Shown here: positions 2,646-25,016 of the stretch, one piece after another
Numbering within the stretch: the first letter of the stretch is position 1
Layout of the letters: each line of letters starts with the position of its first letter
Origin: an uncultured Gammaproteobacteria bacterium
Lineage (GTDB): Bacteria; Patescibacteriota; Patescibacteriia; UBA9934
Length of the DNA stretch: 64,000 nt
Direction: 5' to 3'
Assembly: GCA_964414795.1 (NCBI GenBank)
Contig: CAYPWV010000004.1
Location: 1,591-65,590 of the forward strand
The notes under the pieces: model-generated
Databases searched by the model: none
Seen by the model: the letters and a program-made list of their open reading frames with translations, nothing else
What the model was told of the DNA's origin: nothing
Translations under genes and position numbers: made by a program

Positions 2646-2650
2646 TTCAT

Positions 2651-4096: not shown

Positions 4097-4101
4097 ACGA
4101 T

Positions 4102-5415: not shown

Positions 5416-5442
5416 TTAAGTTTAAGTTGGTAAACTGAACCT

Positions 5443-6141
5443 ATGACTAAATCTAAGAAAACCATTGGAATTTTGGCTGGTATGGGTCCACGATCAACGG
5501 CTCCATTCTTGAATATGGTGTTAGACGAATGTCAAAAACAGTATGGAGCAAAGTATGATGATGAATTTCCTCGCATCATGATTTACTCGTTACCAACACC
5601 TTTCTACATTGATAAACCAGTTGATGCGACAAAGTTAAAAGAGGTGGTGTGCGAAGGACTCAAACGCTTGGAGTCAACCGGGGTCGATTTCATCGTTGTT
5701 CCATGCGGGAGCGTACATACATTCTTTGATGATATGGCGGCATCCGTAAGTGTTCCTGTTTTACACATGATTGAGGAATCAATTGTACATATTTCTTCAG
5801 ATGTAACTTCCATTGGTTTAGTTGCCACTAAAATGACAGCTGACGGTAAGCTCTATCAAGATGCCTTGAAGAAAAAAGGAATTCAAACCATCGAATCAGG
5901 TGACTTACAAGCTCAAGTGGATCGGCTCATTCTTGGCGTCAAAACTGGTTGGTCGAAAGCACAACTGGATGAAGAATTTAAGACCTTTATCAATCTTTTG
6001 CACGAACGCGGCGCAGGGGCTGTTTTGGTCGCTTGTACTGATTTGAGCGAACTTGCTAAATCCCCACAGACTCTTCCCGTCTTTGATGCGGTTGCCGGGC
6101 TCGCTCGGTCGACAGTTGAACGATACCTGCGACTGTCTTAA
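5443..6141 (+). CDS. Aspartate/glutamate racemase family protein
   Basis: N-terminal KKTIGILAGMGPRSTAPF and a second Cys motif VACTDLS are typical of Asp racemases. Confidence 0.7.
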   Translation: MTKSKKTIGILAGMGPRSTAPFLNMVLDECQKQYGAKYDDEFPRIMIYSLPTPFYIDKPVDATKLKEVVCEGLKRLESTGVDFIVVPCGSVHTFFDDMAASVSVPVLHMIEESIVHISSDVTSIGLVATKMTADGKLYQDALKKKGIQTIESGDLQAQVDRLILGVKTGWSKAQLDEEFKTFINLLHERGAGAVLVACTDLSELAKSPQTLPVFDAVAGLARSTVERYLRLS

Positions 6142-6159
6142 ATCAATCCCGGCAATATT

Positions 6160-6765
6160 ATGTCGAATCTTTTCTCCCTGTTCATAGTCGGTTTCACTGC
6201 AGCTGCGCTGCCCGGTGCAGTACAAACTACTGTTTTTCTTGTAACCATTGAAGGCGATATACGAAGCGGGCTGAAATTAGCTCTCGGGGCAGCAATGATG
6301 GACGGGCTTTACCTATCCTTGGCATGCCTCGGTTTGGTTTCTTTTATCGGAAACTTTCCCGTTCTTCGTATTGGGATAGGTCTCGGAGGCGTGATCTTCA
6401 TGGTGTATTTAGGCGTTCAAGGAATTCGACAGGCATGGATAGGAAAAACAATAAATGCCGAGAATAAGAAAAGCGGTGGTTTTCTAACCGGCTTCTTGCT
6501 TGTACTGCTTCACATCCCAACCATGCTCTACTTTATTGGGGTAGCTGGTACGATGTGTAGAGAAAATACATCTGTCTCTTCCGCAATTTCAGGAGCCGCA
6601 AGCTTGTTTGTTGGAGCTTTTGTGTGCTTTGTCTGTGTTGCTTTCATAGCGTGGCTAAGTAAACGTTTTGGTGGCAAAGTTTTGATTCGAGTGCTTCAAA
6701 TTGGTTCGGCGGTTATTCTTATTATTTTCGCAATCAAAACTTTCATCAGCTTATTTAGTGTGTAA
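6160..6765 (+). CDS. LysE/RhtB-type amino-acid exporter family membrane protein
   Basis: 201 aa, about 6 TM helices, LysE-like N-terminus. Inference from hydrophobicity pattern. Confidence 0.5.
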   Translation: MSNLFSLFIVGFTAAALPGAVQTTVFLVTIEGDIRSGLKLALGAAMMDGLYLSLACLGLVSFIGNFPVLRIGIGLGGVIFMVYLGVQGIRQAWIGKTINAENKKSGGFLTGFLLVLLHIPTMLYFIGVAGTMCRENTSVSSAISGAASLFVGAFVCFVCVAFIAWLSKRFGGKVLIRVLQIGSAVILIIFAIKTFISLFSV

Positions 6766-7010
6766 CAAAAATGTTACATGGGCCGGGACTGGCTAGTCCT
6801 AAAAGGCTTGAAAAGACCTAAAAATACAAGGGTAGGGAGGGGGTTAGACAGTTGGTAACCAGACTTCACTTTCGGTGGTTTGTAAGCTATACTTTCGTTG
6901 TCTAGGTTCGACCTCCTTACAGGGGCATATTTTGCCTATCCGGATCGCACGCAATAAGCGGCATCCGGTTAAAACGACACTCGTACGATCCGTACGGGGG
7001 GTCGGGCCTA

Positions 7011-7078: not shown

Positions 7079-7813
7079 ATGGCTCAATCGTTCGAGTGCT
7101 TCGAATGTAAGCACGTCTTCAATAAGCCCCACGACCCGTTACTGACGATCGGTAGTTTTATTCTTTTCGTCGTTGCCATCGGTTTTCTGTTCGGGTTCTT
7201 TCCGATCAGCATCGGTCTTTTCTTACTCATCTGGTGGATGAATCAAAGTCACTGTCCAAAGTGCAAATCGAAACGCATCGTTGCCACAACCAAGGCAGTT
7301 GCATACGTTGAAAGCAAAGAACCGACTCGAGTCCAACAGCCACACAAGAAGGGCTGGACTGGTTTGCAAAAGTTTATCGTCGGGATCGTTATTTTCACTG
7401 CCGCATCACTTGGTTTTCTCGCTATCGTTGCGGCGAATGCTCCCAAGCCACCAACCCTTACCCAGGAACAAATCGACGCAATGAACAACCTTGTTACCTC
7501 GATTAGTTTCTATAAGGATTCCGAAGGAACACCGCAAGTAAAACTGTCATTCAAGAATACTTTCGACAAGACCATTGATGCAGTCGACGTGCGGTTCTAT
7601 CCGCAAAATGCAGCTGGTGAATATCTCGAGTTCACAGAGTTTGGCGGTGACGAACCGATGCCGTATGTGTTCTGGTCACAACAAACGGTTGCACCTGGTG
7701 AGACTGAAACCGACGACTCTAACTTTCTTCTTTATCCAACCGCAACACAGGCAAAAAATGTAGAAGTCATCCGTGTCCATTTCAGCGACAGTACGGAAAT
7801 CACAAGGCAGTAG
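7079..7813 (+). CDS. Hypothetical membrane protein with split Zn-ribbon (CxxC...CxxC) and two TM helices
   Basis: CFECKH...TM...CPKCKSK, second TM, then a soluble domain. No family recognised. Confidence 0.45.
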   Translation: MAQSFECFECKHVFNKPHDPLLTIGSFILFVVAIGFLFGFFPISIGLFLLIWWMNQSHCPKCKSKRIVATTKAVAYVESKEPTRVQQPHKKGWTGLQKFIVGIVIFTAASLGFLAIVAANAPKPPTLTQEQIDAMNNLVTSISFYKDSEGTPQVKLSFKNTFDKTIDAVDVRFYPQNAAGEYLEFTEFGGDEPMPYVFWSQQTVAPGETETDDSNFLLYPTATQAKNVEVIRVHFSDSTEITRQ

Positions 7814-8315
7814 GCTCTTCGGGAGTAGTCGGCGGCACCTCTGGTGATTGCGGATCATGAATCACGAGACCCTCGTTCTTATACTGTGCCTGAAATACGG
7901 TTATATCTTCGAGCATCATGTCTAACTTCCTCTTTTGTTCATCAGTCATCTCTCTTTTGCTCTCTTCAAACTTCTCAAGACGCTTCTGTTTGAAAGCTGC
8001 AGCGACTGGGCTGAACTTATGGTGCCGGTGCTTTAAATAGAAGAACACGGCACTCGGGTCTGCACGATTGATAAGCTCAAGAAGCTTGGATTCAGCAACA
8101 TCGTCGAGAACGTCTGCCCCAGCTTCCATTGCCTTGTTATATGCCTTGGCGAAAGCGGGATCCTCGTCTCTCCAGCGATATATAGTGGATCGCGAAACAT
8201 CGATCTTCTTACAGACGGCTTCGAGAATTGGCATCTTCACGAGCTGCTCAAGCAACAGCTGTTTCTGGAGTTTTATGCGCTGCTCAGCCCTCGGATATTT
8301 CTTTTTGGTTTTCAT
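7800..8315 (-). CDS. HTH protein resembling phage terminase small subunit (TerS-like)
   Basis: KIDVSRSTIYRWRDEDPAFAKAYNKAMEAGADVLDD is typical of TerS/HTH_23-like phage proteins. It sits in an operon with two DNA methyltransferases. Confidence 0.45.
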   Translation of the reverse strand: MKTKKKYPRAEQRIKLQKQLLLEQLVKMPILEAVCKKIDVSRSTIYRWRDEDPAFAKAYNKAMEAGADVLDDVAESKLLELINRADPSAVFFYLKHRHHKFSPVAAAFKQKRLEKFEESKREMTDEQKRKLDMMLEDITVFQAQYKNEGLVIHDPQSPEVPPTTPEEPTAL

Positions 8316-9069
8316 ATGGAGGGTTTATCATTTGCGCCCTCTCCCCAGAGAGTCGTTCCCATAACATGACGATCGTTTCGCAATACTCGACATCTATCTC
8401 AATCATGAGGCACTTACGTTTCGTCTGCTCACATGCAAGAAGGGTAGAACCACCGCCTCCGAACGGGTCATAGACGGTATCCCCGATCTCGCTGCTGTTA
8501 AGAATCAGCCGACGAAGCAAACCGATCGGCTTGGATGTCGGATGATATCTACTTTTACTCGGCTTCGGATATACAAGGATGCTCTTGTCCTTGGACTGCA
8601 TGAACTCGTGTCGTCCGTACCAGCCATAGAGAATAATCTCGTGTTGAGGCAAGTAATCCATGCGACCAATGACTGCGTGCGTCTTCGCCCATATGAGCAT
8701 CTGTGCAAATTTAAATCCCGTTCGCTCCATTCCGTTACGAAGTGCAAAGAGCATCTTGTCCGTGTTGAAAATATAGACCGAGTTTTTATCCGCCATTGCT
8801 GACACGATCGGCTTCATCCAGCTTTCGGTGAACGACTGATATTCTTCTTCGGTCTGCGCATGATCATTCAGAATTACTTTTGGTTTCGCGAGTGATTGTG
8901 TGAAGTCCGCTTTTCCTTCCACATACTCACATGCATACGGAGGGTCAGTCAGCACAAGATCGATCTTTCTTTCCTGCAATACTTGTGTAATATTCACTGA
9001 GTCGGTCGAGTCTCCACAAAGCAAGTAATGCTCGCCGAGTTTTACAAGGTCTCCTTTTTGAATCGTCAT
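8284..9069 (-). CDS. DNA methyltransferase (N6-adenine/N4-cytosine, DPPY type), no ParB domain
   Basis: DPPY motif (LTDPPYACEY) and C-terminal SAM motif DPFGGGGSTLLACEQ. Paralogous to the C-terminal half of the upstream gene. Confidence 0.85.
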   Translation of the reverse strand: MTIQKGDLVKLGEHYLLCGDSTDSVNITQVLQERKIDLVLTDPPYACEYVEGKADFTQSLAKPKVILNDHAQTEEEYQSFTESWMKPIVSAMADKNSVYIFNTDKMLFALRNGMERTGFKFAQMLIWAKTHAVIGRMDYLPQHEIILYGWYGRHEFMQSKDKSILVYPKPSKSRYHPTSKPIGLLRRLILNSSEIGDTVYDPFGGGGSTLLACEQTKRKCLMIEIDVEYCETIVMLWERLSGERAQMINPPYENQKEISEG

Positions 9070-9070
9070 A

Positions 9071-10345
9071 TTAGTCGTTGAGTTTTTGTGCGACCTTTCC
9101 GGTCATCTTTTCGAACCGTCGAATGATCACATCGCAGAATGCTGGATTGATCTCGCACAGTCTCGCCCGCCGATGCATCTGCTCGCACGCAAGCAACGTG
9201 CTTCCACCGCCACCAAAAAGGTCAATCACGATGTCTCCGGGCTTTGTACAACGTTTGAGAGGCTTCTCGTGAAGGCTCAAAGGCTTTTGCGTAGGGTGTT
9301 CGTATTCGTTTGCTGGATCACGCTTCGCGAGCCAAATATCGAAGATACTGAAAATATCGTCGTGCGTGCGGTTTCCTGCGTCCACATTTTGGTTCATGAT
9401 CTCGTGGAGGTTTGCGATGTCTTCGTTGAGATACGGTTTACCGATTGTTCCATATACGCACGGCTCGTAAGCTTTGTTGAATGCCGTCTGCGGAGTCATG
9501 TTGAAGTTGTTTTTGACCCAAAGACACACGCGTTTGTTTTGAACTCCGTGCTTTGCGAATAGTTGCTGGAACATCCAGATATATCGCTGATCACAATAAT
9601 AGAAAACGTGAGCATCAGGCTTCGCAACGGCTAAGGTGTTTGCGAGAATTGTACTAATAAATGTGCCGTATTCTTCATCAGATAACGAATCGTTCACATC
9701 GCCTTGGTACTTACCGTCTGTAGAAATGCCATTGCTATAGTCCAACCCAAGATTGTAAGGCGGATCGCAGGAGATAACGTCGGCGCGATCATCACCCATG
9801 AGCTGAACGACGACGTTTGGATCTAACGAATCTCCGCAGACAAGACGATGGTCTCCGAGCTGAAAAATGTCCCCGAGTTTTGTTGTCGGCTCCTCGTGTG
9901 AGGGTTCTTCCTTTGGTGCAGCTTGGTCATCGATTCCGCCGATATCTGCCCAGACAGCCGACAAATCCTTGTCATCGAACCCAACATCAAGAAGCATGGA
10001 CAAGTCGAATTCCTTCAGAAGTTCATAATCGAATTCGCCAGTATTGCGATTGAGACGAAGTGTCAGCTCTTTCTCGCGCTCAAGATCGGGAATGTTTACG
10101 TAGACGACAGGAACTTCTTTAAAGCCAAGCTCTTTAGCGACAAGCAAACGGAACGCACCTCCTATCACAATATTCAGCCGTTCAGGAGTAGAATTACATA
10201 TTATCGGGTCAACTAGACCGAAACGCGTAATACTCTCCGTGAGTTTTTCTTTTGCCTTCTTATCGTGCTTACGAGCACTGTACGTGGTGGGGATGAGTTT
10301 ATTAATGTCGACGTATACAGTCTGAATGTTTTCCTGTGTGCTCAT
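9071..10345 (-). CDS. ParB-like nuclease domain fused to DNA methyltransferase
   Basis: N-terminal ParB/Srx fold (PIICNSTPERLNIVIGGAFRLLVAKELG), then DPPYNLG and DLFGGGGSTLLACEQ. This phage/plasmid-type architecture is common. Confidence 0.85.
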   Translation of the reverse strand: MSTQENIQTVYVDINKLIPTTYSARKHDKKAKEKLTESITRFGLVDPIICNSTPERLNIVIGGAFRLLVAKELGFKEVPVVYVNIPDLEREKELTLRLNRNTGEFDYELLKEFDLSMLLDVGFDDKDLSAVWADIGGIDDQAAPKEEPSHEEPTTKLGDIFQLGDHRLVCGDSLDPNVVVQLMGDDRADVISCDPPYNLGLDYSNGISTDGKYQGDVNDSLSDEEYGTFISTILANTLAVAKPDAHVFYYCDQRYIWMFQQLFAKHGVQNKRVCLWVKNNFNMTPQTAFNKAYEPCVYGTIGKPYLNEDIANLHEIMNQNVDAGNRTHDDIFSIFDIWLAKRDPANEYEHPTQKPLSLHEKPLKRCTKPGDIVIDLFGGGGSTLLACEQMHRRARLCEINPAFCDVIIRRFEKMTGKVAQKLND

Positions 10346-10492
10346 ACATGTGTTCTTAATTTCTTAATGAACACATCAAATCATGCCTTTCACCCTAGGC
10401 GACATGCAGCGCTCCTATAGTGACCGCTCCCTGAAAACGTAAAAATAGCCATGGGACGGCTACTTTTTACGAGTTATGCACTATAGGAACTT

Positions 10493-11161
10493 TTAGATAT
10501 TTGGGTTTCGTTTGTCGACTTCGACAAAAAGATGTTTCACGAGTCGAAAACCCAATGTCCGTTCGTTGATAGCGATCTTAGTTGTGAGCTTAAAGACATT
10601 GAATCCAATCCTGTTCAATCGACGGACTGCATCATAAAAAGCCGGTTCGCTGTTGTATCCCGTGTATTCGCACAGCGCCTTGGTTTTCCGATACGTTTTC
10701 TTTAAGCTGGAGAGCATTCGCTGCATTTTCGGTGAAAGCAGGTGCGTTTTACTGGGATCGTCCTGATCGACTAAAAACCCTTCAATGGTAATGCGAAGAT
10801 GGTGCCTCTGAGCTAATGGCTCATTGATTTGCGTTACCCGATCTTCGATTTCATCGATCAAAACATCCGACGGTTCTGATTCTTCGGTTATTTCATCGGT
10901 CGAAGTTCCTTCAGGATCATGAATGAGGCTTTTTCTGTATAAACCTTGAAGATACTTCGTCCATTCTTCAATGGCATCGTTGCGTTCGAAAAGCTTGTTT
11001 ATGAATTCTGGTATCGGTATTGGTTTGAGGAGTTTATCCAAATCAGTGACAGAAGCGATTTTCTCGCTCAAAGCCTTGTCCCTAGCTATCATTTCATCGA
11101 CATATAAGGAAATCCCTGCTTTATCGGGTGGATTGGCGAGATTATTATTCTTTACGACCAT
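10493..11161 (-). CDS. Hypothetical protein, acidic middle and possible winged-helix C-terminus; first gene of the methyltransferase operon
   Basis: The track ORF extends to 11323, but that overlaps the divergent OLD gene. The internal ATG at 11161 (MVVKNNN) leaves an AT-rich divergent promoter gap. Confidence 0.35.
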   Translation of the reverse strand: MVVKNNNLANPPDKAGISLYVDEMIARDKALSEKIASVTDLDKLLKPIPIPEFINKLFERNDAIEEWTKYLQGLYRKSLIHDPEGTSTDEITEESEPSDVLIDEIEDRVTQINEPLAQRHHLRITIEGFLVDQDDPSKTHLLSPKMQRMLSSLKKTYRKTKALCEYTGYNSEPAFYDAVRRLNRIGFNVFKLTTKIAINERTLGFRLVKHLFVEVDKRNPNI

Positions 11162-11251
11162 ATTGCTCTTAGAATAGCAAAAATAAGGGGTAATTGATAG
11201 AATAACCGTATCTAACTTTTGATTATCCTCGAAATCGATCCGGGAAATGGT

Positions 11252-13267
11252 ATGTATATTGAGGATATCCAAATAGAGAATTTTCGCCTTCTTCAAGATG
11301 CGAATATTCAACTCGAAAAACAAACGACCGTAATAGTCGGTCGTAATAATAGTGGAAAGACATCTCTCACTGAGATTTTTCGGAGACTGCTCCAGGATGG
11401 AAGTCCTGTTTTTCGACTAGAGGACTTTTCCCTGTCCGCACATGAGCTTTTTTGGACTGCATTTAGTTCAAAGTTGGCGGGTAAGGACGAAAGCGAAATT
11501 AGAAGTTCTTTACCAGCCATTAAAGTCACATTGACTGTCTCTTATGATAAAACAGCAAACCTCGGTGCATTAAGTGAATTCATTATCGATCTCGATGATG
11601 CGTGCACAAAAACCAAGATCGAAATTCGCTATGAGCTGGAGGATGGAAAGTTACAGGCGCTCTTTGCATCCATAGAGCTTGACCCGAAGGGAACGGAGGA
11701 AAATAACAAAGTTGCTTTTTTCAAAAAAATGAAAGAGGTGCTGCCTAAACTTTACAAAACATCATTGTTTGCGATTGATCCAAATGATGAGTCGAATGAA
11801 AAAGCGGTGGAGTGGAATAGGCTTGCATCGGTCATTCAGGCTGGTTTTATTAATGCTCAGCGCGGTTTGGACGATACAACACATAAGGATAACGCGGTTC
11901 TCGGTAAAATATTTGGAGTTCTTTTCGAGACAGCCCTATCGGCATCCGCACTCCCTACCGATCAAACAACGGCACAAGTTCTAACAGATGCAGTACATGA
12001 AATTCAAGAGGAGGTCGATACAAAGTTTAATAGTCAGTTGAACGCGCTTGTACCGGCATTCAAACTATTCGGATATCCCGGCTTGTCAGATCCGAAATTA
12101 CGAACGGAAACAACTTTTGATGTTGAACGACTTTTAACGAATTATACAAAGGTGGTTTATTCTGGGACGAACGGAGTTCATTTACCAGAAGCCTTCAATG
12201 GTTTGGGAGCGCGAAATCTGATATACATTTTGCTGAAGCTTTACGAATTTTTCAAAACGTTTAAAACGACTCCCTGTTCGCCAGGAGTCCATATCATTTT
12301 TATCGAGGAACCAGAGGCTCATCTGCACCCACAGATGCAGGAAGTCTTTATTAAAAAATTAAGCGAAGTTGCGGCAGCTTTTGCTAAGGATTGTGGAGAC
12401 GGCGAGGAGTGGCCGGTACAATTTATCGTTACAACTCATTCATCCCACATGGCAAACCGGGCATCCTTCAGTGCCATCCGATATTTTCTTGTAACGGAAA
12501 CAAAGCAGTCCGACATTACATACTGCCGAACGAAAATCAAGGATCTAAATACAGGCTTGACGGGCATATCTGCTGACGACAAAAAATTCCTTCATCAGTA
12601 TATGACCCTGACCCGATGCGATCTTTTATTCGCAGACAAGATTATCTTGATTGAAGGTACTTCCGAACGATTATTACTGCCAAAAATCATTGAAAAGTTA
12701 GACAACGGAAAACAGCCGGAAGAAAAATTGTCGAGCCAATACATTTCGATCATGGAGGTCGGTGGTGCATATGCGCATAAATTCTTTGACCTTCTCAACT
12801 TTTTGGAGTTAAAAACGCTTATCATTACTGATCTCGATAGCGCGAAGCTTTCTGGTAGAAAATACAAGGCGGAACCCGTACAGAGCGGAACCCGTACAAC
12901 AAATTCCTGTCTTAAGACTTGGTTTGAGAAAGACGATATTTCTCCAACTGAACTTCTTGCGAAGGTTGACGCAGAAAAAATAAAGGAGGATCGTCGTATC
13001 GCCTATCAAATTCCTGAGACGCCTGGGGATTTATGTGGTCGTAGCTTTGAAGAGGCGTTTATTTTAGCAAATACTGCTTTATTTGATCTTACATCAACAA
13101 CTGCTTGGGATCTCGCGGGTGAACAAAAGAAATCAGAATTCGCTTTGAAGCACGCGATTGATGTACATGAATGGAATTCTCCTCGTTACATTACAGAAGG
13201 TTTGATTTGGCTCTCTCAGAATCAGTCCCCCATAGGGGCAATTGTTGCTCCAACTCCCGAGGAATAA
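11252..13267 (+). CDS. OLD-family ATP-dependent endonuclease (ABC ATPase + TOPRIM), GajA-like / class 2 OLD
   Basis: Walker A GRNNSGKTS, H-loop TTHSSHM, TOPRIM Glu in ILIEGTSERLLLP and DxD in ITDLDSAKL. Start chosen at ATG 11252 (MYIEDIQIENFRLL). Confidence 0.8.
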   Translation: MYIEDIQIENFRLLQDANIQLEKQTTVIVGRNNSGKTSLTEIFRRLLQDGSPVFRLEDFSLSAHELFWTAFSSKLAGKDESEIRSSLPAIKVTLTVSYDKTANLGALSEFIIDLDDACTKTKIEIRYELEDGKLQALFASIELDPKGTEENNKVAFFKKMKEVLPKLYKTSLFAIDPNDESNEKAVEWNRLASVIQAGFINAQRGLDDTTHKDNAVLGKIFGVLFETALSASALPTDQTTAQVLTDAVHEIQEEVDTKFNSQLNALVPAFKLFGYPGLSDPKLRTETTFDVERLLTNYTKVVYSGTNGVHLPEAFNGLGARNLIYILLKLYEFFKTFKTTPCSPGVHIIFIEEPEAHLHPQMQEVFIKKLSEVAAAFAKDCGDGEEWPVQFIVTTHSSHMANRASFSAIRYFLVTETKQSDITYCRTKIKDLNTGLTGISADDKKFLHQYMTLTRCDLLFADKIILIEGTSERLLLPKIIEKLDNGKQPEEKLSSQYISIMEVGGAYAHKFFDLLNFLELKTLIITDLDSAKLSGRKYKAEPVQSGTRTTNSCLKTWFEKDDISPTELLAKVDAEKIKEDRRIAYQIPETPGDLCGRSFEEAFILANTALFDLTSTTAWDLAGEQKKSEFALKHAIDVHEWNSPRYITEGLIWLSQNQSPIGAIVAPTPEE

Positions 13268-13269
13268 AT

Positions 13270-15003
13270 ATGCCGGAAATTAACTCAACCAATCCCGCAG
13301 AAGAGGCATCAAAGTCTGCATTGGAAAAAATGTTTTTTGCCATAGGTAATAATCAGAATTTTTTGTTGGAAGCAGGAGCAGGAGCCGGAAAAACATTCTC
13401 ACTTATCAAAGCTCTTCAATATTTGATCGAAAAGAGAGGCGCGGAGTTTTTGCGTAAGCACCAATCGATCGCGTGCATTACCTACACAAATGTCGCCAGT
13501 GATGAAATTCGATCTCGAATCGACAGTCATCCAGCTGTTTTCTCTTCAACAATCCATGCCTTTTGCTGGTCACTTATCAAAGACTTTCAACCCGAGTTAA
13601 GAAAAAATCTTGCTTTAATAGAAAAATGGTCTGAAAGAATCATAGAGGCAGGAGGACTTGGCGATAAAAAAGTTAAATATGAATTAGGGTATCCGAAGAT
13701 CGACGAAGATATCTTACTTGGACACGGAGACGTGATTACACTCACTATCGCTCTCTTGGACAGTCAAAAGTTCCGTGATATTTTTGTAAGTCGTTACCCA
13801 GTGGTGCTGATCGACGAGTATCAGGATACAGATGAAAACTTCGTTGAAGCCCTTAAGAAGTACATGTTTGTAGGCGAACGCAAGCCACTAATCGGATTCT
13901 TCGGAGACCATTGGCAAAAAATTTATGAGGAGGGCGGCGAGCAGGTTGAACATCCAGAATTATCTGTTATAGGAATGGGGGCAAACTTTAGATCAGCTCC
14001 TGTCATTGTGGATGTTCTCAACAAAATGCGACCAGAACTCGCTCAAGCAGTGAAGGATGCTACGCTACTTGGAACCGCTAACGTTTATCACACGAACTCA
14101 TGGGCAGGTGTACGGCAAACCAAGCCCCACTGGAAGGGTGACCTACCCGCCGATGAGGCTCACAATTACCTTGAGAAGTTAAAACAGATTCTCATTGATA
14201 CTGGATGGGATTTTACATCTGGTAAAACTAAAATCCTGATGCTAACCCATAACGTTTTGGCAAAGGAGCAGGGATATAGCGGCATTGTCGAAGCTTTTGA
14301 TGGAAAAAATGATCGTTTCGTCAAAAAGGAAGATCGCCATATTAAATTTCTAGTAGAAGTGGTTGAACCACTCTGCTTGGCTTACGAACAAAAACGTTTC
14401 GGTGAAATGTTCAAAGTGATTGGCGGTGGACATCCGACGATTCATTCTCACGCGGACAAGACGGGCTGGAAAAGAGATATGGAAACACTGATGACTATTC
14501 GTTCCAGTGGAACTGTGGGAGATGTGATTGATCACCTCAAATCGACTGGTAGACCACACCTGCCAGAATCAGTTGAGCGAAAAGAAAGTAAACTTTTATT
14601 GCCGGTCGATCAGCTAGTCAACGATGAAGTTGAATCGATTGATAGACTTCGTGCTTTACGCGGCGTTCCTTACCAAGAAGTTGTCGCCTTGGCAAAATTC
14701 ATTGATGAAAAAACTCCATTTTCTACAAAGCACGGGGTAAAGGGTGCAGAGTTTGAAAATGTTCTTGTTGTGATCGGTAGAGGTTGGAATCATTACGATT
14801 TCAATCAAATGCTGGAATGGTTTCACACGGGTACACCATCGGACAAACTAAAAGCTTTTCATCGAAATAGAAACCTCTTTTACGTTGCCTGTTCACGTGC
14901 AAAGGCAAATCTTGCCTTGTTTCTTACACAAGAACTATCCGATGATGCGTTATCCCAACTCACTTCTTGGTTTTCCCAGGAAAACATTCATCCTATGACC
15001 TAG
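13270..15003 (+). CDS. UvrD/Rep/PcrA-like SF1 helicase, GajB-like partner of the OLD nuclease
   Basis: Walker A EAGAGAGKTFSL and helicase motif ACITYTNVASDEI. ATG at 13270 is 2 nt after the OLD stop; the track start at 13171 is an upstream extension. Confidence 0.8.
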   Translation: MPEINSTNPAEEASKSALEKMFFAIGNNQNFLLEAGAGAGKTFSLIKALQYLIEKRGAEFLRKHQSIACITYTNVASDEIRSRIDSHPAVFSSTIHAFCWSLIKDFQPELRKNLALIEKWSERIIEAGGLGDKKVKYELGYPKIDEDILLGHGDVITLTIALLDSQKFRDIFVSRYPVVLIDEYQDTDENFVEALKKYMFVGERKPLIGFFGDHWQKIYEEGGEQVEHPELSVIGMGANFRSAPVIVDVLNKMRPELAQAVKDATLLGTANVYHTNSWAGVRQTKPHWKGDLPADEAHNYLEKLKQILIDTGWDFTSGKTKILMLTHNVLAKEQGYSGIVEAFDGKNDRFVKKEDRHIKFLVEVVEPLCLAYEQKRFGEMFKVIGGGHPTIHSHADKTGWKRDMETLMTIRSSGTVGDVIDHLKSTGRPHLPESVERKESKLLLPVDQLVNDEVESIDRLRALRGVPYQEVVALAKFIDEKTPFSTKHGVKGAEFENVLVVIGRGWNHYDFNQMLEWFHTGTPSDKLKAFHRNRNLFYVACSRAKANLALFLTQELSDDALSQLTSWFSQENIHPMT

Positions 15004-15027
15004 AATGAGACTACATTTTCATGAAAT

Positions 15028-15834
15028 ATGCATCTCGTTGATTTTGGTATAGATAATCGTAAATTAGCTTCTCTCATCTGGTTGGTGATCGCTTTTCTCT
15101 GGATGTTGTTCAATAACGATATCCGAAAAAGTTTGTTGCAAGTAGTTAAGGCAGTTTCTCATCCGAAAGCATTAACAACACTCTTTTTATGTTCTGTCTA
15201 TGTGTCTTTAATCATTTTCTCACTTGAACATCTCGGCTATTGGCATTTGGGAATGCTCGCGGATTCGATTTTTTGGTTTATTGGAACGGCTCTAGTGCTG
15301 GTAGTGAACTCGAACGACATGGTGGACTCTGAGAAGTTTAAAATAAAGTTGCTTCAATATTTCTCGCTCTCAATCATTTTAGACTTTTTCGTTAACTTAT
15401 ATAGCTTCAGCTTCTTAACAGAAATGGTGATTCTGCCATTAATAACTTTAGTCTTTCTTCTTTTTGCAGTAGCTAATGGCAATATAAAGTACAAAGCGGT
15501 TACTTCTTTAACGACAGTTCTTCTCACGATCGCAGGTCTATTTTATTTATGGAGATCGTCCATCGGGCTATATACCGATCTGCCAGTAATAAATACTTTT
15601 GGAACATTCGAAAACTTTTTATTGATCCCAATATTAACCTTGCTATTCATCCCGTTTCTATACGTCATAGTAATGACCATGGGGTACGGCGCTCTATTTT
15701 CACGAATCCAATTCTTTTTTAAGAATGATCTATCCTTGCAAAGAAGTATAAAATGGAAGGCGGTTAAAACTTGTAACGTAAATTTGAAACGACTAAATAT
15801 TTTCTCTTCATCTTTTTACAAAACCTACGTTTAA
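15028..15834 (+). CDS. Hypothetical polytopic membrane protein (about 7 TM) immediately downstream of the helicase
   Basis: 25-nt gap after the helicase gene; AT-rich; no recognisable family. Confidence 0.4.
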   Translation: MHLVDFGIDNRKLASLIWLVIAFLWMLFNNDIRKSLLQVVKAVSHPKALTTLFLCSVYVSLIIFSLEHLGYWHLGMLADSIFWFIGTALVLVVNSNDMVDSEKFKIKLLQYFSLSIILDFFVNLYSFSFLTEMVILPLITLVFLLFAVANGNIKYKAVTSLTTVLLTIAGLFYLWRSSIGLYTDLPVINTFGTFENFLLIPILTLLFIPFLYVIVMTMGYGALFSRIQFFFKNDLSLQRSIKWKAVKTCNVNLKRLNIFSSSFYKTYV

Positions 15835-16257
15835 GACCATACAAGCAACTGACTTTGTTCGTGTCTTGTTCGTATTTTTACCATTGTAAAAGTCCACTGA
15901 TTTCAGTATTTCTGCGCATGGTACCCCATACTGTATCGTCTCATTTGTCTCATTTCGATACGACCGGAACAGGGTCGGCAAGCATATAGAAGGGTGCTCC
16001 AAAGTCCCCTCAAAGTCTTCAATCTAGACCGGGCCGCAGAACCACAAAGTAGAAACCAAAAACTGGTTTCTATTTTGTTTTTGGTTTCACTTTGTGGTAA
16101 ACCCTACAGTGAACCGAACGCAGTGAGGTTCTACTGTAGGGGAACTATGAGCAGAAACCTCACAGTTTCTGTTTTGCGTTTTGTGGAGTATCCAAACAAC
16201 ATAAAAAATGCTAATCTAAAATCATAATAAGGTTTTAGATGACGTAATTAGAAAAAT

Positions 16258-16473
16258 ATGGCCAGGATTACTTTTGAATCAGTTTTCAAAAAGAATTTAG
16301 ATGGATCCTTCGAACCAACACAACGAATCCGTGTAGGTGGTGTTGAATTTGGTCCTGGTATTCGATTTACTCCTGGCGTCTCTTTTGTTGGCATCGACTT
16401 CACTCAATTGGTTGGAAAAGATTTCGAGGTTGAAACTGACGGTAGTGTTATGGTTTTAAAGGGTGCATATTGA
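16258..16473 (+). CDS. Hypothetical small protein (71 aa)
   Basis: ORF in the AT-rich cassette, preceded by a structured leader. Confidence 0.3.
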   Translation: MARITFESVFKKNLDGSFEPTQRIRVGGVEFGPGIRFTPGVSFVGIDFTQLVGKDFEVETDGSVMVLKGAY

Positions 16474-16825
16474 TATGACACCTAACGAACCAACACTAAA
16501 TAATAGCTCTCAATCAGACTCGGATGAGCTTCCTATTAAGTTTCCAATAGATCCTAAAGATTTATATAAACATCTTGACAGACAAACAAATTTGATCATC
16601 GGAATTTTTTCAATCGCGATCATAACAATGCTTTGTATGGTAGGGGGACTTCTTATTGATGCCTTTCATTTTAACTCAGCAACTTATAGAGAGTATTCTG
16701 AAAAGATAGATACACTTAATCAACTTCAAATAACAAATAAAAGTCTTCAAGAGCAGATTCAAACAAACGAAAACGCAATCCTCCAACAAAATACACAAAT
16801 TCTAAACATCCTCAATACCAAATAG
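16463..16825 (+). CDS. Hypothetical type-II membrane protein (N-terminal TM + Q/N-rich coiled coil)
   Basis: TM IIGIFSIAIITMLCMVGGLLI followed by a heptad-like Q/N-rich tail. Confidence 0.35.
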   Translation: MHIDMTPNEPTLNNSSQSDSDELPIKFPIDPKDLYKHLDRQTNLIIGIFSIAIITMLCMVGGLLIDAFHFNSATYREYSEKIDTLNQLQITNKSLQEQIQTNENAILQQNTQILNILNTK

Positions 16826-16846
16826 ACCTGCCTAATCAATTCTTTT

Positions 16847-17146
16847 ATGATTTATTTACTTCTTTTAATCATTATTGCATTACTCACTTATAATGCATTT
16901 TTTACATCAGAAAAAATTGAGCAACGAGAGATAAAACGGATGCAGAAATTATTTAATACGCCGCTGTATCCGAATGCAGTAAAATTTATAGCAAACGACG
17001 AAAGAAATAACTTATATCCTGACGAAATTGTTAAATTAGGATTAAAATATACAACGAGAAGAGAAGCGACAAATAAGTTAATTGAAACCAAGAAGCAATA
17101 CCCAAATCTAAGTGAAGAAGAAATCCAAATATTCGCCCAACTATAA
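16847..17146 (+). CDS. Hypothetical small membrane-anchored protein (99 aa)
   Basis: N-terminal TM MIYLLLLIIIALLTY, then a charged soluble domain. Confidence 0.3.
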   Translation: MIYLLLLIIIALLTYNAFFTSEKIEQREIKRMQKLFNTPLYPNAVKFIANDERNNLYPDEIVKLGLKYTTRREATNKLIETKKQYPNLSEEEIQIFAQL

Positions 17147-17179
17147 AAAGATTCAACACGATTAAACTTTATAGGCTCT

Positions 17180-17488
17180 ATGATTCCATTAGCAGATATT
17201 ATCCAAATTGCCATATTTTGTGCCATTGTCATTTATACGTGGGAAACGCACACTCTTCGCGAATGGCAGCAAAAACAAGTACAACTCACTATCCTCAATA
17301 TGGAGATGGATCGCCGTGGTAAGGACGCTATAATTCCAAGTTATTATCCGAAGGCGGTTTTGGAGATTTATCACGACGCATATTTCGATCCCAACGAAAT
17401 GTACTCACCTATTTATCGCATCCCACTTAACTTTGTTCAAAAGATAAAAAAGTTTTTTCACAGCTCTCGACAAAACACCCGTCGCTAA
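17180..17488 (+). CDS. Hypothetical small membrane-anchored protein (102 aa)
   Basis: N-terminal TM IIQIAIFCAIVIY; third consecutive single-TM small ORF in the AT-rich cassette. Confidence 0.3.
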   Translation: MIPLADIIQIAIFCAIVIYTWETHTLREWQQKQVQLTILNMEMDRRGKDAIIPSYYPKAVLEIYHDAYFDPNEMYSPIYRIPLNFVQKIKKFFHSSRQNTRR

Positions 17489-18383: not shown

Positions 18384-19295
18384 TTACCCCTTCAAAAACT
18401 TGCGTACCGCACCTGCAGTCGTAACTACACCCAACAACGAAAGTCCAATCCATTGCACCAAAAAGAGTGCAATGCCATTTTCAAAATAAAACCGTACAAG
18501 ACTCACCGGAACTCCCGAAAAGAAACGTGCAATAAGCGGCTCAAGCGAAATAAGGACAACCGCAAGAAGACCAGTCATGAGCAACGTTGCAGCAAGGGCA
18601 TAAAAAATGGCTTCAAGCAAAAACGGTGCGCGAATAAACCAGTCTTTCGCACCCACCAATTTCATGACTGAAATTTCATCACGATGCGTATAAATACCTA
18701 CACGAATCGTATTGAACACGATAAGAATGGAAATAAGGCCGAAAAATGCCGCAAGTCCCATACCGCCCCAACGAATGTGATTGGTAAACGTGGAAAGACG
18801 TTCAATAACGTTTTGATAATCTGCGTAATCTTTATCTTTAATATACTGAGAAAATTCGGGGCTATTTACCGCTTCAAGAATAAAGGGGAAATCTTCGGGA
18901 TGCTCGGCCTGCACACGCAGTGCATCACCAAACGGATTACCGTCTACTTCTTTAAGTGCCGCCAAAATCTCTGCGTCATTTGCATGGCGTTCGGTAAAAG
19001 AGATAAGCGCCTCATCAGCAGAAACGGTGGTAACATCACGCACTTGGGGCAAACCAATAAGATACCCGCGCACCGATTTCACCACATCCTCACTTGTTCC
19101 CGGAACAAAATACACTTCAACCTGCACCCGATCTTCAATAGCCTTAATGGAAGCATCGGCAAGCACATTGAGAATAATCACTGCGTTGATGGTAACAAGC
19201 GTAAGAAAAAGAACCGACGTAGTAACAAACGAAAGCCAAAAATTACGAAAGATTCCTTGAAAGGCAAACCTGATCATGCGAAAAAATGCGCGCAT
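18384..19295 (-). CDS. ftsX: Cell division permease FtsX
   Basis: Four-TM topology with a large extracytoplasmic loop, directly downstream of ftsE. Start taken at MRAFFRMIRF; the track start overlaps ftsE. Confidence 0.8.
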   Translation of the reverse strand: MRAFFRMIRFAFQGIFRNFWLSFVTTSVLFLTLVTINAVIILNVLADASIKAIEDRVQVEVYFVPGTSEDVVKSVRGYLIGLPQVRDVTTVSADEALISFTERHANDAEILAALKEVDGNPFGDALRVQAEHPEDFPFILEAVNSPEFSQYIKDKDYADYQNVIERLSTFTNHIRWGGMGLAAFFGLISILIVFNTIRVGIYTHRDEISVMKLVGAKDWFIRAPFLLEAIFYALAATLLMTGLLAVVLISLEPLIARFFSGVPVSLVRFYFENGIALFLVQWIGLSLLGVVTTAGAVRKFLKG

Positions 19296-19296
19296 A

Positions 19297-19980
19297 TTAT
19301 CCAAGATGATATTTTCCTTTTGCGATATCGGAAACCACTTCTCCTTTTTGCATTGTAATAACGCGGCGATTAAGCGCATTCACGATGTCGCGATCATGCG
19401 TTACAAGTACGACCGTGGTGCCAAATTCATTGATACGCTTCAGAAGCTCAATAATTTCTCGTGCGGTTACCGCATCCAAATTACCCGTCGGCTCATCGGC
19501 GAGCATAATTTTTGGACGATGCACGAGCGAACGCGCAATAGAAACACGCTGCTGCTCACCCCCCGAAAGCTGCCGAGGATACCGATGCGCCTTATCTGCA
19601 AGCCCCACAATTTTTAATACTTGCGGAACGATCTCATTGATGCGCTTGTTAGACTCTCCCGCAACTTCAAGCGCAAACGCAACATTTTCAAAAGCGGTTT
19701 TTTTGGGAAGAAGTTTATAATCCTGAAAAACCATCCCAAGCTGTCGGCGCAATGCAGGAACTTGATAATGAGGAATTTTAGAAATATCCCATTCGCCAAT
19801 AAGCACCTGACCTTCGCTGGGTTTTTCTTCTGCGGAAATGAGTTTTGCAATAGTGGTTTTTCCGCTTCCGCTGGAACCGACGATCGAAACAAATTCCCCC
19901 GACTCAATATGAAACGTAACTCCGCGAAGTGCGTGCACATCGGGAGGATAGATTTTCGTAACATTGCGCAGCGTAATCAT
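19297..19980 (-). CDS. ftsE: Cell division ATP-binding protein FtsE (ABC ATPase)
   Basis: Walker A GSSGSGKTT, ABC signature LSGGEQQRVSIARSL, Walker B IMLADEPTGNLD. Confidence 0.9.
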   Translation of the reverse strand: MITLRNVTKIYPPDVHALRGVTFHIESGEFVSIVGSSGSGKTTIAKLISAEEKPSEGQVLIGEWDISKIPHYQVPALRRQLGMVFQDYKLLPKKTAFENVAFALEVAGESNKRINEIVPQVLKIVGLADKAHRYPRQLSGGEQQRVSIARSLVHRPKIMLADEPTGNLDAVTAREIIELLKRINEFGTTVVLVTHDRDIVNALNRRVITMQKGEVVSDIAKGKYHLG

Positions 19981-19994
19981 GAAAGTAGTATAGC

Positions 19995-20194
19995 GTATGG
20001 GAAAGTGGGAAGTAGAGAGTTGTTAGTTTGAAGTGAGTGGATGCTATGTTTTGTCGTGATACAGACAACAGACTACAGACGGCAGATGGGGAAAGTGATC
20101 AGAATCAGATATCTCTTATCTGTCGTCTGTAGTCTGTTATCTAAAAGGAACATCTTTTCACTTCAAACTAACAACTACAAACTTCATAACTTCA
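19995..20194. repeat. MITE-like composite palindromic repeat, family A copy 1
   Basis: Terminal inverted repeats AGTTGTTAGTTTGAAGTGA / TCACTTCAAACTAACAACT; internal IR CAGACTACAGACGGCAGAT / ATCTGTCGTCTGTAGTCTG. Shares GTTTGAAGTGAGTGGATG and ACAGACGGCAGATGG modules with the copies at 42.3, 44.3 and 58.8 kb. Confidence 0.7.
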
Positions 20195-20196
20195 AA

Positions 20197-20231
20197 AGAA
20201 AAGACTCCGTGCATATGCACGGAGTCTTTTC
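20197..20231 (-). terminator. Perfect palindromic hairpin with flanking A/T runs; terminator of tRNA-Thr (bidirectional)
   Basis: AAAAGACTCCGTGCAT|ATGCACGGAGTCTTTT directly 3' of the minus-strand tRNA. Confidence 0.6.
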
Positions 20232-20234
20232 TTC

Positions 20235-20310
20235 TGGAGCCGATGACCGGGCTCGAACCGGTGACCTGCGGTTTACGATACCGCTGCTCTACCAACTGAG
20301 CTACATCGGC
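20235..20310 (-). tRNA. tRNA-Thr (anticodon CGT)
   Basis: RC folds as acceptor GCCGATG/CATCGGC, D-arm GCTC-AGTTGGTA-GAGC, anticodon stem GCGGT/ACCGC, loop ATCGTAA, T-arm ACCGG-TTCGAGC-CCGGT, CCA. Confidence 0.85.
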
Positions 20311-24983: not shown

Positions 24984-25016
24984 AAAAAATACTCCGAAAA
25001 CCGGAGTATTTTTTGA
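24984..25016 (-). terminator. Perfect hairpin AATACTCCG-AAAA-CCGGAGTATT flanked by A6/T6 (bidirectional terminator)
   Basis: Seen directly. It lies 3' of the minus-strand tRNA-like gene. Confidence 0.55.

What the first reader, a model, noticed from the sequence alone, without database searches (positions are those of the whole stretch)
11161..15834. Gabija/class-2-OLD-like defense pair (OLD ATPase-TOPRIM nuclease + UvrD-like helicase) with an unassigned membrane protein tail gene
The 11252-13267 gene has an ABC-ATPase head (Walker A GRNNSGKTS, H-loop TTHSSHM) and a TOPRIM domain (E in IEGTSE, DLD). It is followed 2 nt later by an SF1 UvrD-like helicase. This two-gene architecture defines Gabija (GajA/GajB) and class 2 OLD systems. 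If this genome is CPR-like, as I infer with low support, it would be a less-sampled lineage for such defense loci. A 268-aa polytopic membrane protein follows after 25 nt and could be a lineage-specific third component or effector.
Basis: partly seen in the sequence, partly recalled or inferred. Interest (0 to 1): 0.6.

Follow-up and report, generated by a model that had tools for sequence, protein, structure and literature searches.

The report
Gabija defence pair with portable membrane gene
This is an ordinary two-gene Gabija anti-phage system sitting in a swappable "defence slot" of a small mobile-element remnant in a CPR/Patescibacteria genome, and its third gene is not a Gabija part but a member of a large, unnamed membrane-protein family that recurs as the last gene of many different DNA-targeting defence operons.

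Summary
Gene 11252-13267 is a full-length GajA (ABC ATPase plus OLD-type TOPRIM; PADLOC GajA E 3.6e-281). Gene 13270-15003, 2 nt later, is a full-length GajB (UvrD-like SF1 helicase; E 6.4e-253). The catalytic motifs are intact. The pair is not housekeeping. A close relative of the same island (ParB-methylase 90% identical) carries DUF4297+HerA in that position, and a more distant relative carries a Dsr1-like gene. The host is probably CPR, because its FtsE is 94% identical to one from a Patescibacteria MAG. The 268-aa membrane protein (15028-15834) is probably co-transcribed with the pair and has the same third-codon GC as gajAB. It is not Gabija-specific: none of the 48 related GajAB loci has it. 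It belongs to an unannotated family with seven predicted membrane segments (3,819 clusters at 50% identity). The family matches no Pfam, NCBIfam or PADLOC model. The AlphaFold model is confident (pLDDT 94) and has no Foldseek match in PDB or BFVD. Family members sit directly after type IIG and type I restriction enzymes, OLD-like ATPases, a Dsr1-like gene and PADLOC candidate systems. Verdict: a known system and a new member of it. The one modestly novel lead is the defence-associated membrane family.

The parts
11162..11251 (.). 90-nt divergent intergenic region upstream of gajA. The left junction of the swapped cargo lies at about 11199/11200.
   Evidence: Nucleotide homology to the sister island L094 runs over window 8020-11199 and stops there. 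Sequence. No sigma-70 consensus hit in this region.
11252..13267 (+). gajA: OLD-family (class 2) ABC-ATPase + TOPRIM nuclease, 671 aa. Walker A at 11339-11365, Walker B (IIFIEEPE) at 12293-12331, H-loop at 12431-12451, TOPRIM Glu (LIEGTSE) at 12647-12667, Gly (EVGGAY) at 12755-12772, DxD (ITDLDS) at 12824-12841.
   Evidence: Pfam AAA_15 3.2e-57 and OLD-like_TOPRIM 4.7e-19. PADLOC GajA PDLC00063 3.6e-281, full length. The alignment to B. cereus GajA places E379, G409 and D432xD434 on identical residues. Motif coordinates.
13270..15003 (+). gajB: UvrD-like SF1 helicase, 577 aa. Walker A GAGAGKTF at 13375-13398, DEYQD box at 13810-13833.
   Evidence: Pfam UvrD-helicase 1.4e-24, AAA_19, UvrD_C, UvrD_C_2. 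PADLOC GajB PDLC00113 6.4e-253. Best PDB matches are GajB chains, with the Walker A and DEYQD regions aligned. This exact protein is on record in the public collection.
15028..15834 (+). Tail gene: 268-aa polytopic membrane protein. Seven hydrophobic segments and a basic C-terminal tail. Family-invariant residues are R11, W83 and E132. It belongs to a large unannotated family associated with defence operons.
   Evidence: No Pfam, PADLOC or PHROG hit, and none for 126 diverse relatives in Pfam, PADLOC or NCBIfam. The family has 3,819 clusters at 50% identity. AF2 pLDDT 93.9, with no Foldseek match in PDB or BFVD. Hydropathy. GC3 is 0.405, close to gajA 0.394 and gajB 0.389.
16044..16078 (+). 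First strong terminator-like hairpin (15-pair stem plus T-run) downstream of the three genes; probable end of the transcription unit.
   Evidence: No terminator-like site was found in the 24-nt GajB-to-membrane spacer or the 2-nt GajA-to-GajB spacer.
15853..16002 (-). Truncated 5' remnant (about 50 codons) of a gene that is at least 197 aa in sister island L094. It marks the right junction of the cargo at about 15852/15853.
   Evidence: blastn matches L094 39-153 to window 15965-15853. Translations compared.
7800..11161 (-). Conserved island backbone next to the slot: a TerS-like HTH protein (7800-8315), an N6/N4 DNA methylase (8284-9069), a ParB-N-fused methylase (9071-10345) and an unknown 222-aa protein (10493-11161).
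   Evidence: Pfam, PHROGs terminase small subunit. Amino-acid identity to L094 is 68%, 85%, 90% and 63% for the four proteins. Both methylases are 58-59% identical to L050 and the TerS-like HTH protein about 33-34%; the unknown 222-aa protein has no detectable L050 match. GC3 is 0.46-0.54 against 0.39-0.41 for the cargo.

Best explanation
[quoted passage not shown] By analogy with the studied B. cereus system, GajA and GajB should assemble into a nuclease-helicase complex. In that complex the GajA TOPRIM site nicks or cleaves phage DNA under nucleotide control, and GajB acts on the resulting DNA ends and hydrolyses (d)NTPs. This mechanism is inferred from family membership and conserved catalytic residues; it is not shown for this clade. 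The pair and the downstream membrane gene make up a 4.65-kb cargo of low third-codon GC (about 11200-15852). The cargo occupies a variable slot beside a conserved methylase / ParB-methylase / TerS-like backbone. This is shown by comparison with two related elements that carry DUF4297+HerA or a Dsr1-like gene in the same slot. The host chromosome is probably Patescibacteria (CPR). The membrane gene is most likely co-transcribed (24-nt spacer, no terminator), but it is not a Gabija component. It belongs to a very large unannotated family with seven predicted membrane segments. Family members are typically the tightly coupled last gene of otherwise unrelated DNA-targeting defence operons: type IIG and type I restriction-modification, OLD-like ATPases, a Dsr1-like gene and PADLOC candidates. 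My best guess for its role, inferred with low confidence, is a self-contained membrane-level accessory or second-layer defence module that travels with such operons, rather than an effector wired specifically to GajAB.
For: Gabija identity rests on full-length PADLOC GajA and GajB hits, the Pfam domains, and TOPRIM E/G/DxD, Walker A and DEYQD motifs aligned to the residues defined for B. cereus Gabija. gajA followed by gajB is conserved in 48 of 49 related loci. The pair is not housekeeping and the slot is variable: L094 has DUF4297 (1.6e-33) and HerA (5.3e-249) between the same backbone genes, with 78% nucleotide identity over 3.2 kb of backbone. L050 has a Dsr1-like gene (4.5e-46) plus an unknown gene and a membrane homologue. 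The cargo is a compositional unit, with GC3 of 0.39-0.41 for all three genes against 0.52-0.54 for the methylase/TerS-like backbone genes (0.46 for the unknown 222-aa gene) and 0.26-0.28 downstream. L050 and L094 show the same pattern. The membrane gene is independent of Gabija: 0 of 48 related GajAB loci carry it and no conserved third gene exists there. The family has 3,819 clusters. Its contexts are type IIG RM with 1-nt overlap (L056, L059, L061, L068, L097), type IIG RM upstream with other spacing (L058, L070, L089), type I RM (L096), an OLD-like ATPase (L080), PDC-M34B (L062), PDC-S06 (L079) and a Mokosh-like helicase-nuclease (L063). CPR host: FtsE is 94% identical to a Patescibacteria MAG protein.
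Against: The pair resembles the experimentally studied B. cereus Gabija only distantly (phmmer E about 7e-10 and 3e-7, partial coverage). The detailed mechanism is therefore extrapolated. Co-transcription of the membrane gene is inferred from spacing only. The contexts I sampled are few (about 21 evaluated distinct loci) and biased towards one Bacteroidota clade. At least two loci (L085, L095) show no recognisable defence neighbour. The fact that the membrane gene shares GC3 and cassette junctions with gajAB would also fit a functional three-gene unit. The CPR assignment rests on one protein cluster. No att repeats or intact recombinase define the island.
Confidence: 0.8

Rival explanations
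1. The three genes are one functional three-component Gabija variant. In this reading the membrane protein is the dedicated downstream effector or anchor of GajAB, for example membrane disruption triggered by GajAB activation.
For: The spacer is 24 nt with no terminator. All three genes have the same GC3. The swapped segment relative to L094 includes all three genes.
Against: None of the 48 related GajAB loci has this or any conserved third gene. The closest homologue of the membrane protein (47% identity) follows a Dsr1-like gene instead, and the bulk of the family follows restriction enzymes. Published Gabija works as a two-protein complex (abstracts).
Confidence: 0.12
2. The membrane gene is simply a backbone or flanking gene of the mobile element next to the hotspot, with a role in the element's own biology (for example superinfection exclusion or transport). 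It would have no relation to the neighbouring defence genes.
For: It is kept in both the window and L050 while the upstream cargo differs, and in L050 it lies directly before the serine recombinase. Some family members (L095, L085) have no recognisable defence neighbour.
Against: Its GC3 matches the cargo and not the backbone, in both the window and L050. The closest backbone relative, L094, lacks it. Outside this element family it is translationally coupled (1-nt overlaps) to restriction enzymes in chromosomal defence islands that have no such backbone.
Confidence: 0.15
3. The OLD-UvrD pair is a housekeeping DNA-repair module (a UvrD/PcrA orthologue with an accessory nuclease) and not an immune system.
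For: GajB carries generic UvrD/PcrA/Rep motifs, and PcrA and Rep appear among its PDB hits.
Against: The best matches by far are full-length Gabija-specific HMMs. The pair is missing from the syntenic position in the sister island L094. Its GC3 is atypical. The nearest homologues, at no more than 54% identity, are scattered across unrelated phyla.
Confidence: 0.02
4. The pair belongs to another OLD or ABC-ATPase defence family (PARIS AriAB, Septu, retron-associated OLD, class 1 OLD) and not to Gabija.
For: The AriA model matches the ATPase half (1e-55), and the Old model matches at 1.5e-33.
Against: Those hits cover only part of the protein and are more than 200 orders of magnitude weaker than the GajA hit. 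The partner is a UvrD-like helicase and not AriB, PtuB or a reverse transcriptase.
Confidence: 0.03

Closest known systems
Gabija (GajA/GajB) of Bacillus cereus VD045, i.e. class 2 OLD nuclease + UvrD-like helicase
   Same: Two adjacent co-oriented genes. GajA has an ABC-ATPase head and an OLD TOPRIM with E, G and DxD. GajB is an SF1A helicase with Walker A and a DEXQD box.
   Different: Pairwise similarity is only distant (E 7e-10 and 3e-7). GajA is 671 aa against 578 aa. The pair falls in other PADLOC subfamilies (PDLC00063 and PDLC00113), whose nearest members are mostly proteobacterial at no more than 54% identity. An extra co-transcribed membrane gene is present. The host is CPR.
Class 2 OLD nucleases of Burkholderia pseudomallei / Xanthomonas (PDB 6NK8)
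   Same: OLD TOPRIM catalytic region encoded next to a UvrD/PcrA/Rep-like helicase (text). The window's C-terminal half hits 6NK8 weakly (E 3.4e-4).
   Different: The sequence match is very weak. Those proteins were studied only as isolated nuclease regions.
Defence hotspots of P2-like prophages and P4-like satellites (Rousset et al. 2022, PMC9122126)
   Same: Conserved flanking element genes bracket a slot that holds different anti-phage systems in different copies. Here the slot holds Gabija, DUF4297+HerA or a Dsr1-like gene.
   Different: The backbone is unrelated (TerS-like HTH, methylase, ParB-methylase). Only three copies were seen. The window's copy lacks a terminase large subunit and an adjacent recombinase, so it looks like a remnant. 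The host is probably CPR.
Membrane components of known defence systems (Kiwa KwaA, Zorya ZorAB, Tmn, TM effectors of CBASS/Pycsar)
   Same: A polytopic membrane protein encoded inside a defence operon.
   Different: Neither the window protein nor any of 126 relatives matches the 5,027 PADLOC models consistently (a single stray BrxB hit at E 0.0055). No Foldseek match in PDB or BFVD. This family pairs with many unrelated partners and not with one fixed partner.

Membership tests
Gabija | GajA has an N-terminal ABC-type ATPase domain (AAA_15/AAA_21) with Walker A, Walker B and H-loop | tested here: met
   AAA_15 3.2e-57 over residues 1-401, AAA_21 3.5e-15. Motifs located.
Gabija | GajA has a C-terminal OLD-type TOPRIM with the invariant Glu, Gly and DxD (E379, G409, D432/D434 in B. 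cereus GajA) | tested here: met
   OLD-like_TOPRIM 4.7e-19. The residues are defined in PMC10781630. The alignment puts them on E468, G504 and D527/D529 of the window protein (numbering).
Gabija | GajB is an SF1 UvrD-like helicase with Walker A Gx4GK[T] and a DEXQD box | tested here: met
   UvrD-helicase 1.4e-24, UvrD_C, UvrD_C_2. GAGAGKTF and IDEYQD align to B. cereus GajB. Motif definition.
Gabija | gajA is directly followed by gajB on the same strand | tested here: met
   2-nt spacer. The same order is found in 48 of 49 related loci; the 49th contig ends inside gajA.
Gabija | Full-length match to curated Gabija profile HMMs (the PADLOC rule) | tested here: met
   GajA PDLC00063 3.6e-281 and GajB PDLC00113 6.4e-253.
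Gabija | Forms a GajA4-GajB4 complex, shows nucleotide-regulated DNA nicking and protects against phage | not testable with these tools
   Known only for B. cereus and a few other systems (abstracts). Extrapolated here.
Housekeeping UvrD/PcrA | Conserved in syntenic position in related genomes | tested here: not met
   The sister island L094 (ParB-methylase 90% identical) has DUF4297+HerA in place of the pair.
PARIS (AriA/AriB) | An AriA ATPase paired with an AriB (DUF4435 TOPRIM) gene | tested here: not met
   The AriA model covers only the ATPase half (1e-55). The TOPRIM is fused in cis and the partner is a helicase.
Three-component Gabija variant with a membrane effector | The membrane gene co-occurs with this GajAB clade | tested here: not met
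   tblastn finds the membrane protein in 0 of 49 GajA loci, and all 8 loci carrying it at that stage lacked GajAB. No conserved gene and no polytopic membrane protein follows GajB elsewhere.
Prophage/satellite-type defence hotspot | Conserved flanking genes with different defence systems in between | tested here: met
   The same methylase / ParB-methylase / TerS-like backbone carries Gabija (window), DUF4297+HerA (L094) or a Dsr1-like gene (L050). The cargo GC3 differs from the backbone in all three. Only three copies were sampled.
Known membrane defence proteins (PADLOC-DB v2) | Sequence match to any model such as KwaA, ZorA/B or Tmn | tested here: not met
   No hit for the window protein. 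Among 126 diverse relatives there was one stray hit (BrxB, E 0.0055).

The most novel reading that the evidence does not exclude
The 268-aa tail protein would represent a new, very widespread family (3,819 clusters at 50% identity) with seven predicted membrane segments, no Foldseek match in PDB or BFVD and no annotation. The family would be a portable anti-phage accessory or effector module. It would plug into the 3' end of many unrelated DNA-targeting immune operons: type IIG and type I RM, Gabija, OLD-like ATPases and Dsr1-like genes. Possible roles are a membrane-level second line of defence or a tether at the site of phage DNA entry. The invariant intramembrane E132/W83 and N-terminal R11 would form its functional core.
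Probability: 0.35. Interest if true: 0.65.

Novelty: new member of a known kind. Interest (0 to 1): 0.38.

Why it matters
The Gabija pair itself adds little. Gabija is reported in more than 15% of sequenced genomes (abstract), and CPR defence repertoires have already been surveyed (PMC12259885). Two by-products are more useful. First, the same methylase-bearing element backbone carries three different defence systems in one slot, one copy lying in a probable CPR genome; the hosts of the other two copies were not determined. This is a small example of hotspot-type immune gene exchange. Second, the tail gene exposes a large membrane-protein family without a Pfam, NCBIfam or PADLOC model. The family is repeatedly coupled to restriction enzymes and other nucleases. 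If it contributes to immunity, it would be a common and so far overlooked accessory of restriction-modification systems.

Tried and rejected
- An AF2 model built on a 3-sequence alignment was useless (pLDDT 45.6). It was replaced by a model built on 126 sequences.
- The membrane family has no relatives in IMG/VR viral contigs or in 50,697 phage records. A phage origin is therefore not supported.
- An exact look-up of the window's own membrane protein on contigs failed. A second cluster look-up for taxonomy returned no names.
- No att-like direct repeats flank the island, so its ends and its mobility mechanism remain undefined.
- The sigma-70 scan found no promoter in the gajA upstream region. 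This may only reflect a non-consensus CPR promoter.
- A literature search for DUF7149/DUF7814 found no paper. A search for membrane partners of type IIG enzymes was screened by title and abstract only and showed nothing relevant.
- I considered the membrane gene as an element backbone gene and rejected this as the primary reading, because of GC3 and its absence from L094.
- I considered PARIS, Septu and class 1 OLD and rejected them on HMM coverage and partner type.
Full report
**1. What is in the sequence**

The region holds three co-oriented ORFs on the + strand. They are 11252-13267 (671 aa), 13270-15003 (577 aa, 2-nt spacer) and 15028-15834 (268 aa, 24-nt spacer). The finding's start, 11161, is the start codon of a divergent minus-strand gene (10493-11161). 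A 90-nt intergenic region separates that gene from the first ORF. The only strong terminator-like hairpin on the + strand after these genes lies at 16044-16078. None lies between the genes. The three genes therefore look like one transcription unit, but this is inferred from spacing and has not been shown.

**2. Genes 1 and 2 are Gabija**

- Gene 1 matches Pfam AAA_15 (3.2e-57, residues 1-401), AAA_21 and OLD-like_TOPRIM (4.7e-19).
- Gene 2 matches UvrD-helicase (1.4e-24), AAA_19, UvrD_C and UvrD_C_2.
- Against PADLOC, both proteins match a Gabija subfamily model end to end: GajA PDLC00063 at E 3.6e-281 and GajB PDLC00113 at E 6.4e-253. Models for other OLD or ABC families (AriA 1e-55, Old 1.5e-33) cover only part of the protein.
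In GajA these are GRNNSGKTS, IIFIEEPE, TTHSSHM, LIEGTSE, EVGGAY and ITDLDS. In GajB they are GAGAGKTF and IDEYQD.
- The B. cereus GajA active site is defined as E379, G409 and D432/D434, and GajB by Walker A plus a DEXQD box (PMC10781630). The phmmer alignments to PDB GajA and GajB chains put all of these on identical residues.
- Pairwise similarity to the solved B. cereus proteins is nevertheless weak (E about 7e-10 and 3e-7, partial coverage). This is a different Gabija clade, and the published mechanism is extrapolated to it. That mechanism comprises a GajA4B4 complex, NTP-inhibited nicking by GajA, and GajB sensing DNA ends and hydrolysing (d)NTPs (abstracts).

**3. The pair is not housekeeping: it sits in a variable defence slot**

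- A scan of GTDB species representatives found 49 loci with a GajA relative (30-56% identity over the best aligned segment; full-length matches reach 54%), mostly Proteobacteria but also Streptomyces, Verrucomicrobiota, Nitrospirota and a Methanobrevibacter MAG.
- GajB directly follows GajA in 48 of them. The 49th contig ends inside gajA.
- The flanks of the window's region are housekeeping genes. To the left are GatA, GatB, a class II aaRS, a racemase and LysE (1209-6765). To the right are FtsX and FtsE (18384-19980).
- Between them lies an island with a TerS-like HTH protein (7800-8315), an N6/N4 methylase (8284-9069), a ParB-fused methylase (9071-10345) and an unknown 222-aa protein.
- A Logan contig, L094, carries the same backbone. 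Amino-acid identity is 90% for the ParB-methylase, 85% for the methylase, 68% for the TerS-like protein and 63% for the unknown protein, with 78% nucleotide identity over window 8020-11199.
- Homology to L094 stops at 11199 and resumes at 15853. In between, L094 has DUF4297 (1.6e-33) plus HerA (5.3e-249), a different known defence system.
- At the right junction the window keeps only about 50 codons of a gene that is at least 197 aa in L094.
- A more distant copy is L050, from a Hainich groundwater MAG, with methylases 58-59% identical. In the slot it has a Dsr1-like 1,166-aa protein (4.5e-46) and an unknown 372-aa protein, then a homologue of the membrane gene and a serine recombinase. A weak TerL-like gene sits on the other side.
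- Third-codon GC separates cargo from backbone in all three copies. In the window, gajA is 0.394, gajB 0.389 and the membrane gene 0.405, against 0.52-0.54 for the methylases and the TerS-like gene (0.46 for the unknown 222-aa gene) and 0.26-0.28 for the downstream small ORFs. L050 and L094 behave the same way.
- This is a hotspot-type arrangement like that described for P2 and P4 elements (PMC9122126).
- I found no att repeats. The window's copy has no adjacent recombinase and looks like a remnant.

**4. Host**

FtsE (19297-19980) falls in a 90%-identity cluster that includes MEK9157003.1, labelled 'Patescibacteria group bacterium'. The two proteins are 94% identical, and that label corresponds to the CPR clade. 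Defence systems in CPR MAGs have already been catalogued at scale (PMC12259885), so Gabija in a CPR genome is not in itself news.

**5. The membrane gene: family and fold**

- The protein has seven hydrophobic segments and a basic C-terminal tail, with 9 K/R in residues 226-268.
- It matches nothing in Pfam, PADLOC or PHROGs.
- A word-indexed search found only two relatives (47% and 35% identity). A profile search then found 222. An exhaustive HMM search of 1.84 billion cluster representatives found 3,819 clusters at E<=1e-3, of which 1,314 score at E<=1e-30.
- Named members come from Flavobacterium, Algoriphagus, Fulvivirga, Pleomorphovibrio, Lutibacter and Moorella. Plasmid-borne copies occur in Salmonella and Arcobacter.
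- 126 diverse members have no consistent Pfam, PADLOC or NCBIfam match.
- R11, W83 and E132 are invariant. E12, W18, Y58, W72, K78, F120, F127, P137, P209, Y212, Y220 and K242 are nearly invariant.
- Longer forms of about 415-525 aa add varied C-terminal domains. One of these (P0149) contains an HELLH motif.

**6. The membrane gene: genomic company**

- It is absent from all 49 GajA loci. No conserved third gene and no polytopic membrane protein follows GajB in those loci.
- None of the family loci examined outside the window encodes a detectable relative of this GajA-GajB pair; L080 has only a distant OLD-like ATPase upstream.
- Genes found directly upstream, on the same strand, are listed here:
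  - A DUF7149-DUF7814-MmeI/Eco57I-TaqI_C type IIG restriction-modification enzyme. The overlap is 1 nt in L056, L059, L061 (the same locus as L074) and L068, and 4 nt in L070. In L058 a 232-aa gene lies in between. In L089 the enzyme is split.
  - A second kind of type IIG enzyme, also with a 1-nt overlap (L097/L098).
  - The HsdR gene of a type I RM operon (L096, 214 nt).
  - An OLD-like AAA_15 ATPase (L080).
  - PDC-M34B (L062, 1.2e-72).
  - The unknown 372-aa gene that follows the Dsr1-like gene (L050).
- Nearby genes include PDC-S06 (L079), a Mokosh-like SF1 helicase with a DUF559 nuclease (L063/L065), an SLFN-type helicase with an S24 peptidase (L083), a TIR protein (L061), an M78/DUF4411 pair (L097) and integrases (L067, Salmonella).
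- Two evaluated loci show no obvious defence neighbour (L085 with a Usp protein, L095 with a Metallophos protein).
- About 16 of 21 evaluated distinct loci place the gene within two genes of a recognised defence gene, usually as the tightly coupled last gene of the operon. This count was made by hand and is biased towards one Bacteroidota clade. It is a lead and not a statistic.

**7. Interpretation**

- The Gabija call is secure (about 0.9).
- The membrane gene belongs to the cargo and not to the backbone. The evidence is its GC3, the L094 junctions, and its presence next to a different cargo in L050.
- It is not a Gabija-specific component. It behaves as a portable tail module of DNA-targeting defence operons.
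- Its function is unknown. I favour an autonomous or accessory membrane-level defence role (about 0.35), for example a second-line effector or an anchor at the membrane. This reading rests on the invariant intramembrane acidic residue and tryptophan, the basic cytoplasmic tail, the variable C-terminal fusions and the partner spectrum.
- I give about 0.12 to a dedicated GajAB effector and about 0.15 to a defence-unrelated element gene. The rest is undetermined.

**8. Verdict**

The locus is a new member of a known kind. Interest is modest (0.38). It comes mainly from the unannotated defence-associated membrane family and from the three-way cargo swap in one slot.

Noticed in passing
window 8-457 (minus strand, cut by the window start): The N-terminal 150 aa of a serine recombinase, 63% identical to the recombinase that directly follows the membrane gene in L050. 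It lies next to tRNA-Asn (822-896) and about 6 kb from the island, with housekeeping genes in between. It may belong to another integrated element or reflect a rearrangement.
   Followed up: partly
L094 605-3486: A sister copy of the island backbone carries a DUF4297 + HerA defence system in the slot where the window has GajAB plus the membrane gene.
   Followed up: yes
L050 5354-9986: The Dsr1-like 1,166-aa protein matches only Dsr1 profile positions 291-1214, and its first 218 aa have no Pfam match, so no SIR2 domain is recognisable. It is followed by an unknown 372-aa protein. This may be an undescribed Dsr1 variant.
   Followed up: partly
L059 8873-9838 and L068 6516-7490; L061 8864-9982: In type IIG loci the membrane gene is itself overlapped by a further conserved unknown gene of 321-324 aa (60% identical between loci). 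In L061 an 82-aa gene plus a TIR-domain protein take that place. The type IIG-membrane unit may therefore be part of larger operons.
   Followed up: partly
P0149, P0173, P0198, P0246, P0269, P0270 (family members): Long forms (415-525 aa) fuse the membrane core to different C-terminal domains. P0149 contains an HELLH motif of the metalloprotease type, and P0173 adds more membrane segments.
   Followed up: partly
L092 8001-8765: This contig has 21% GC. Its membrane-family homologue has nine in-frame TGA codons and no other stops, which suggests an organism that reads TGA as sense (genetic code 4 or 25).
   Followed up: partly
window 25120-25196 (minus strand): ARAGORN reports a tRNA with an undetermined identity and a four-base anticodon 'tatc'. 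Rfam scores it as a weak tRNA (38.8 bits). It overlaps the start of ORF 25157-26266.
   Followed up: no
window 25000-30000: GC rises to 0.54-0.60 here, against a window mean of 0.47, and then drops to 0.41 at 29-31 kb. This is a second compositionally atypical stretch.
   Followed up: no
window 32333-41524 (minus strand): A single ORF of 3,063 aa, not examined.
   Followed up: no
window 20009-20239: Three inverted repeats with 25-35-nt arms (80-92% complementary) lie in the 250 nt between ftsE and tRNA-Thr (20235-20310).
   Followed up: no
window 8284-10345: Two adjacent N6/N4 DNA methylases, one fused to a ParB N-terminal domain, with no nuclease homologue detected among the adjacent island genes scanned. 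These look like orphan methylases of the phage or mobile-element type.
   Followed up: partly
window 16258-17488: Four small ORFs (71-120 aa). Three have very low GC3 (0.26-0.28). None has a homologue in any fetched locus. This is a third compositional block between the cargo and ftsX.
   Followed up: no
window 6770-6909: A 140-nt non-coding segment just beyond the island's left end is 82% identical to L094 7710-7851, although the genes beyond it differ in the two contigs. It could be an element end or an attachment-related sequence.
   Followed up: partly
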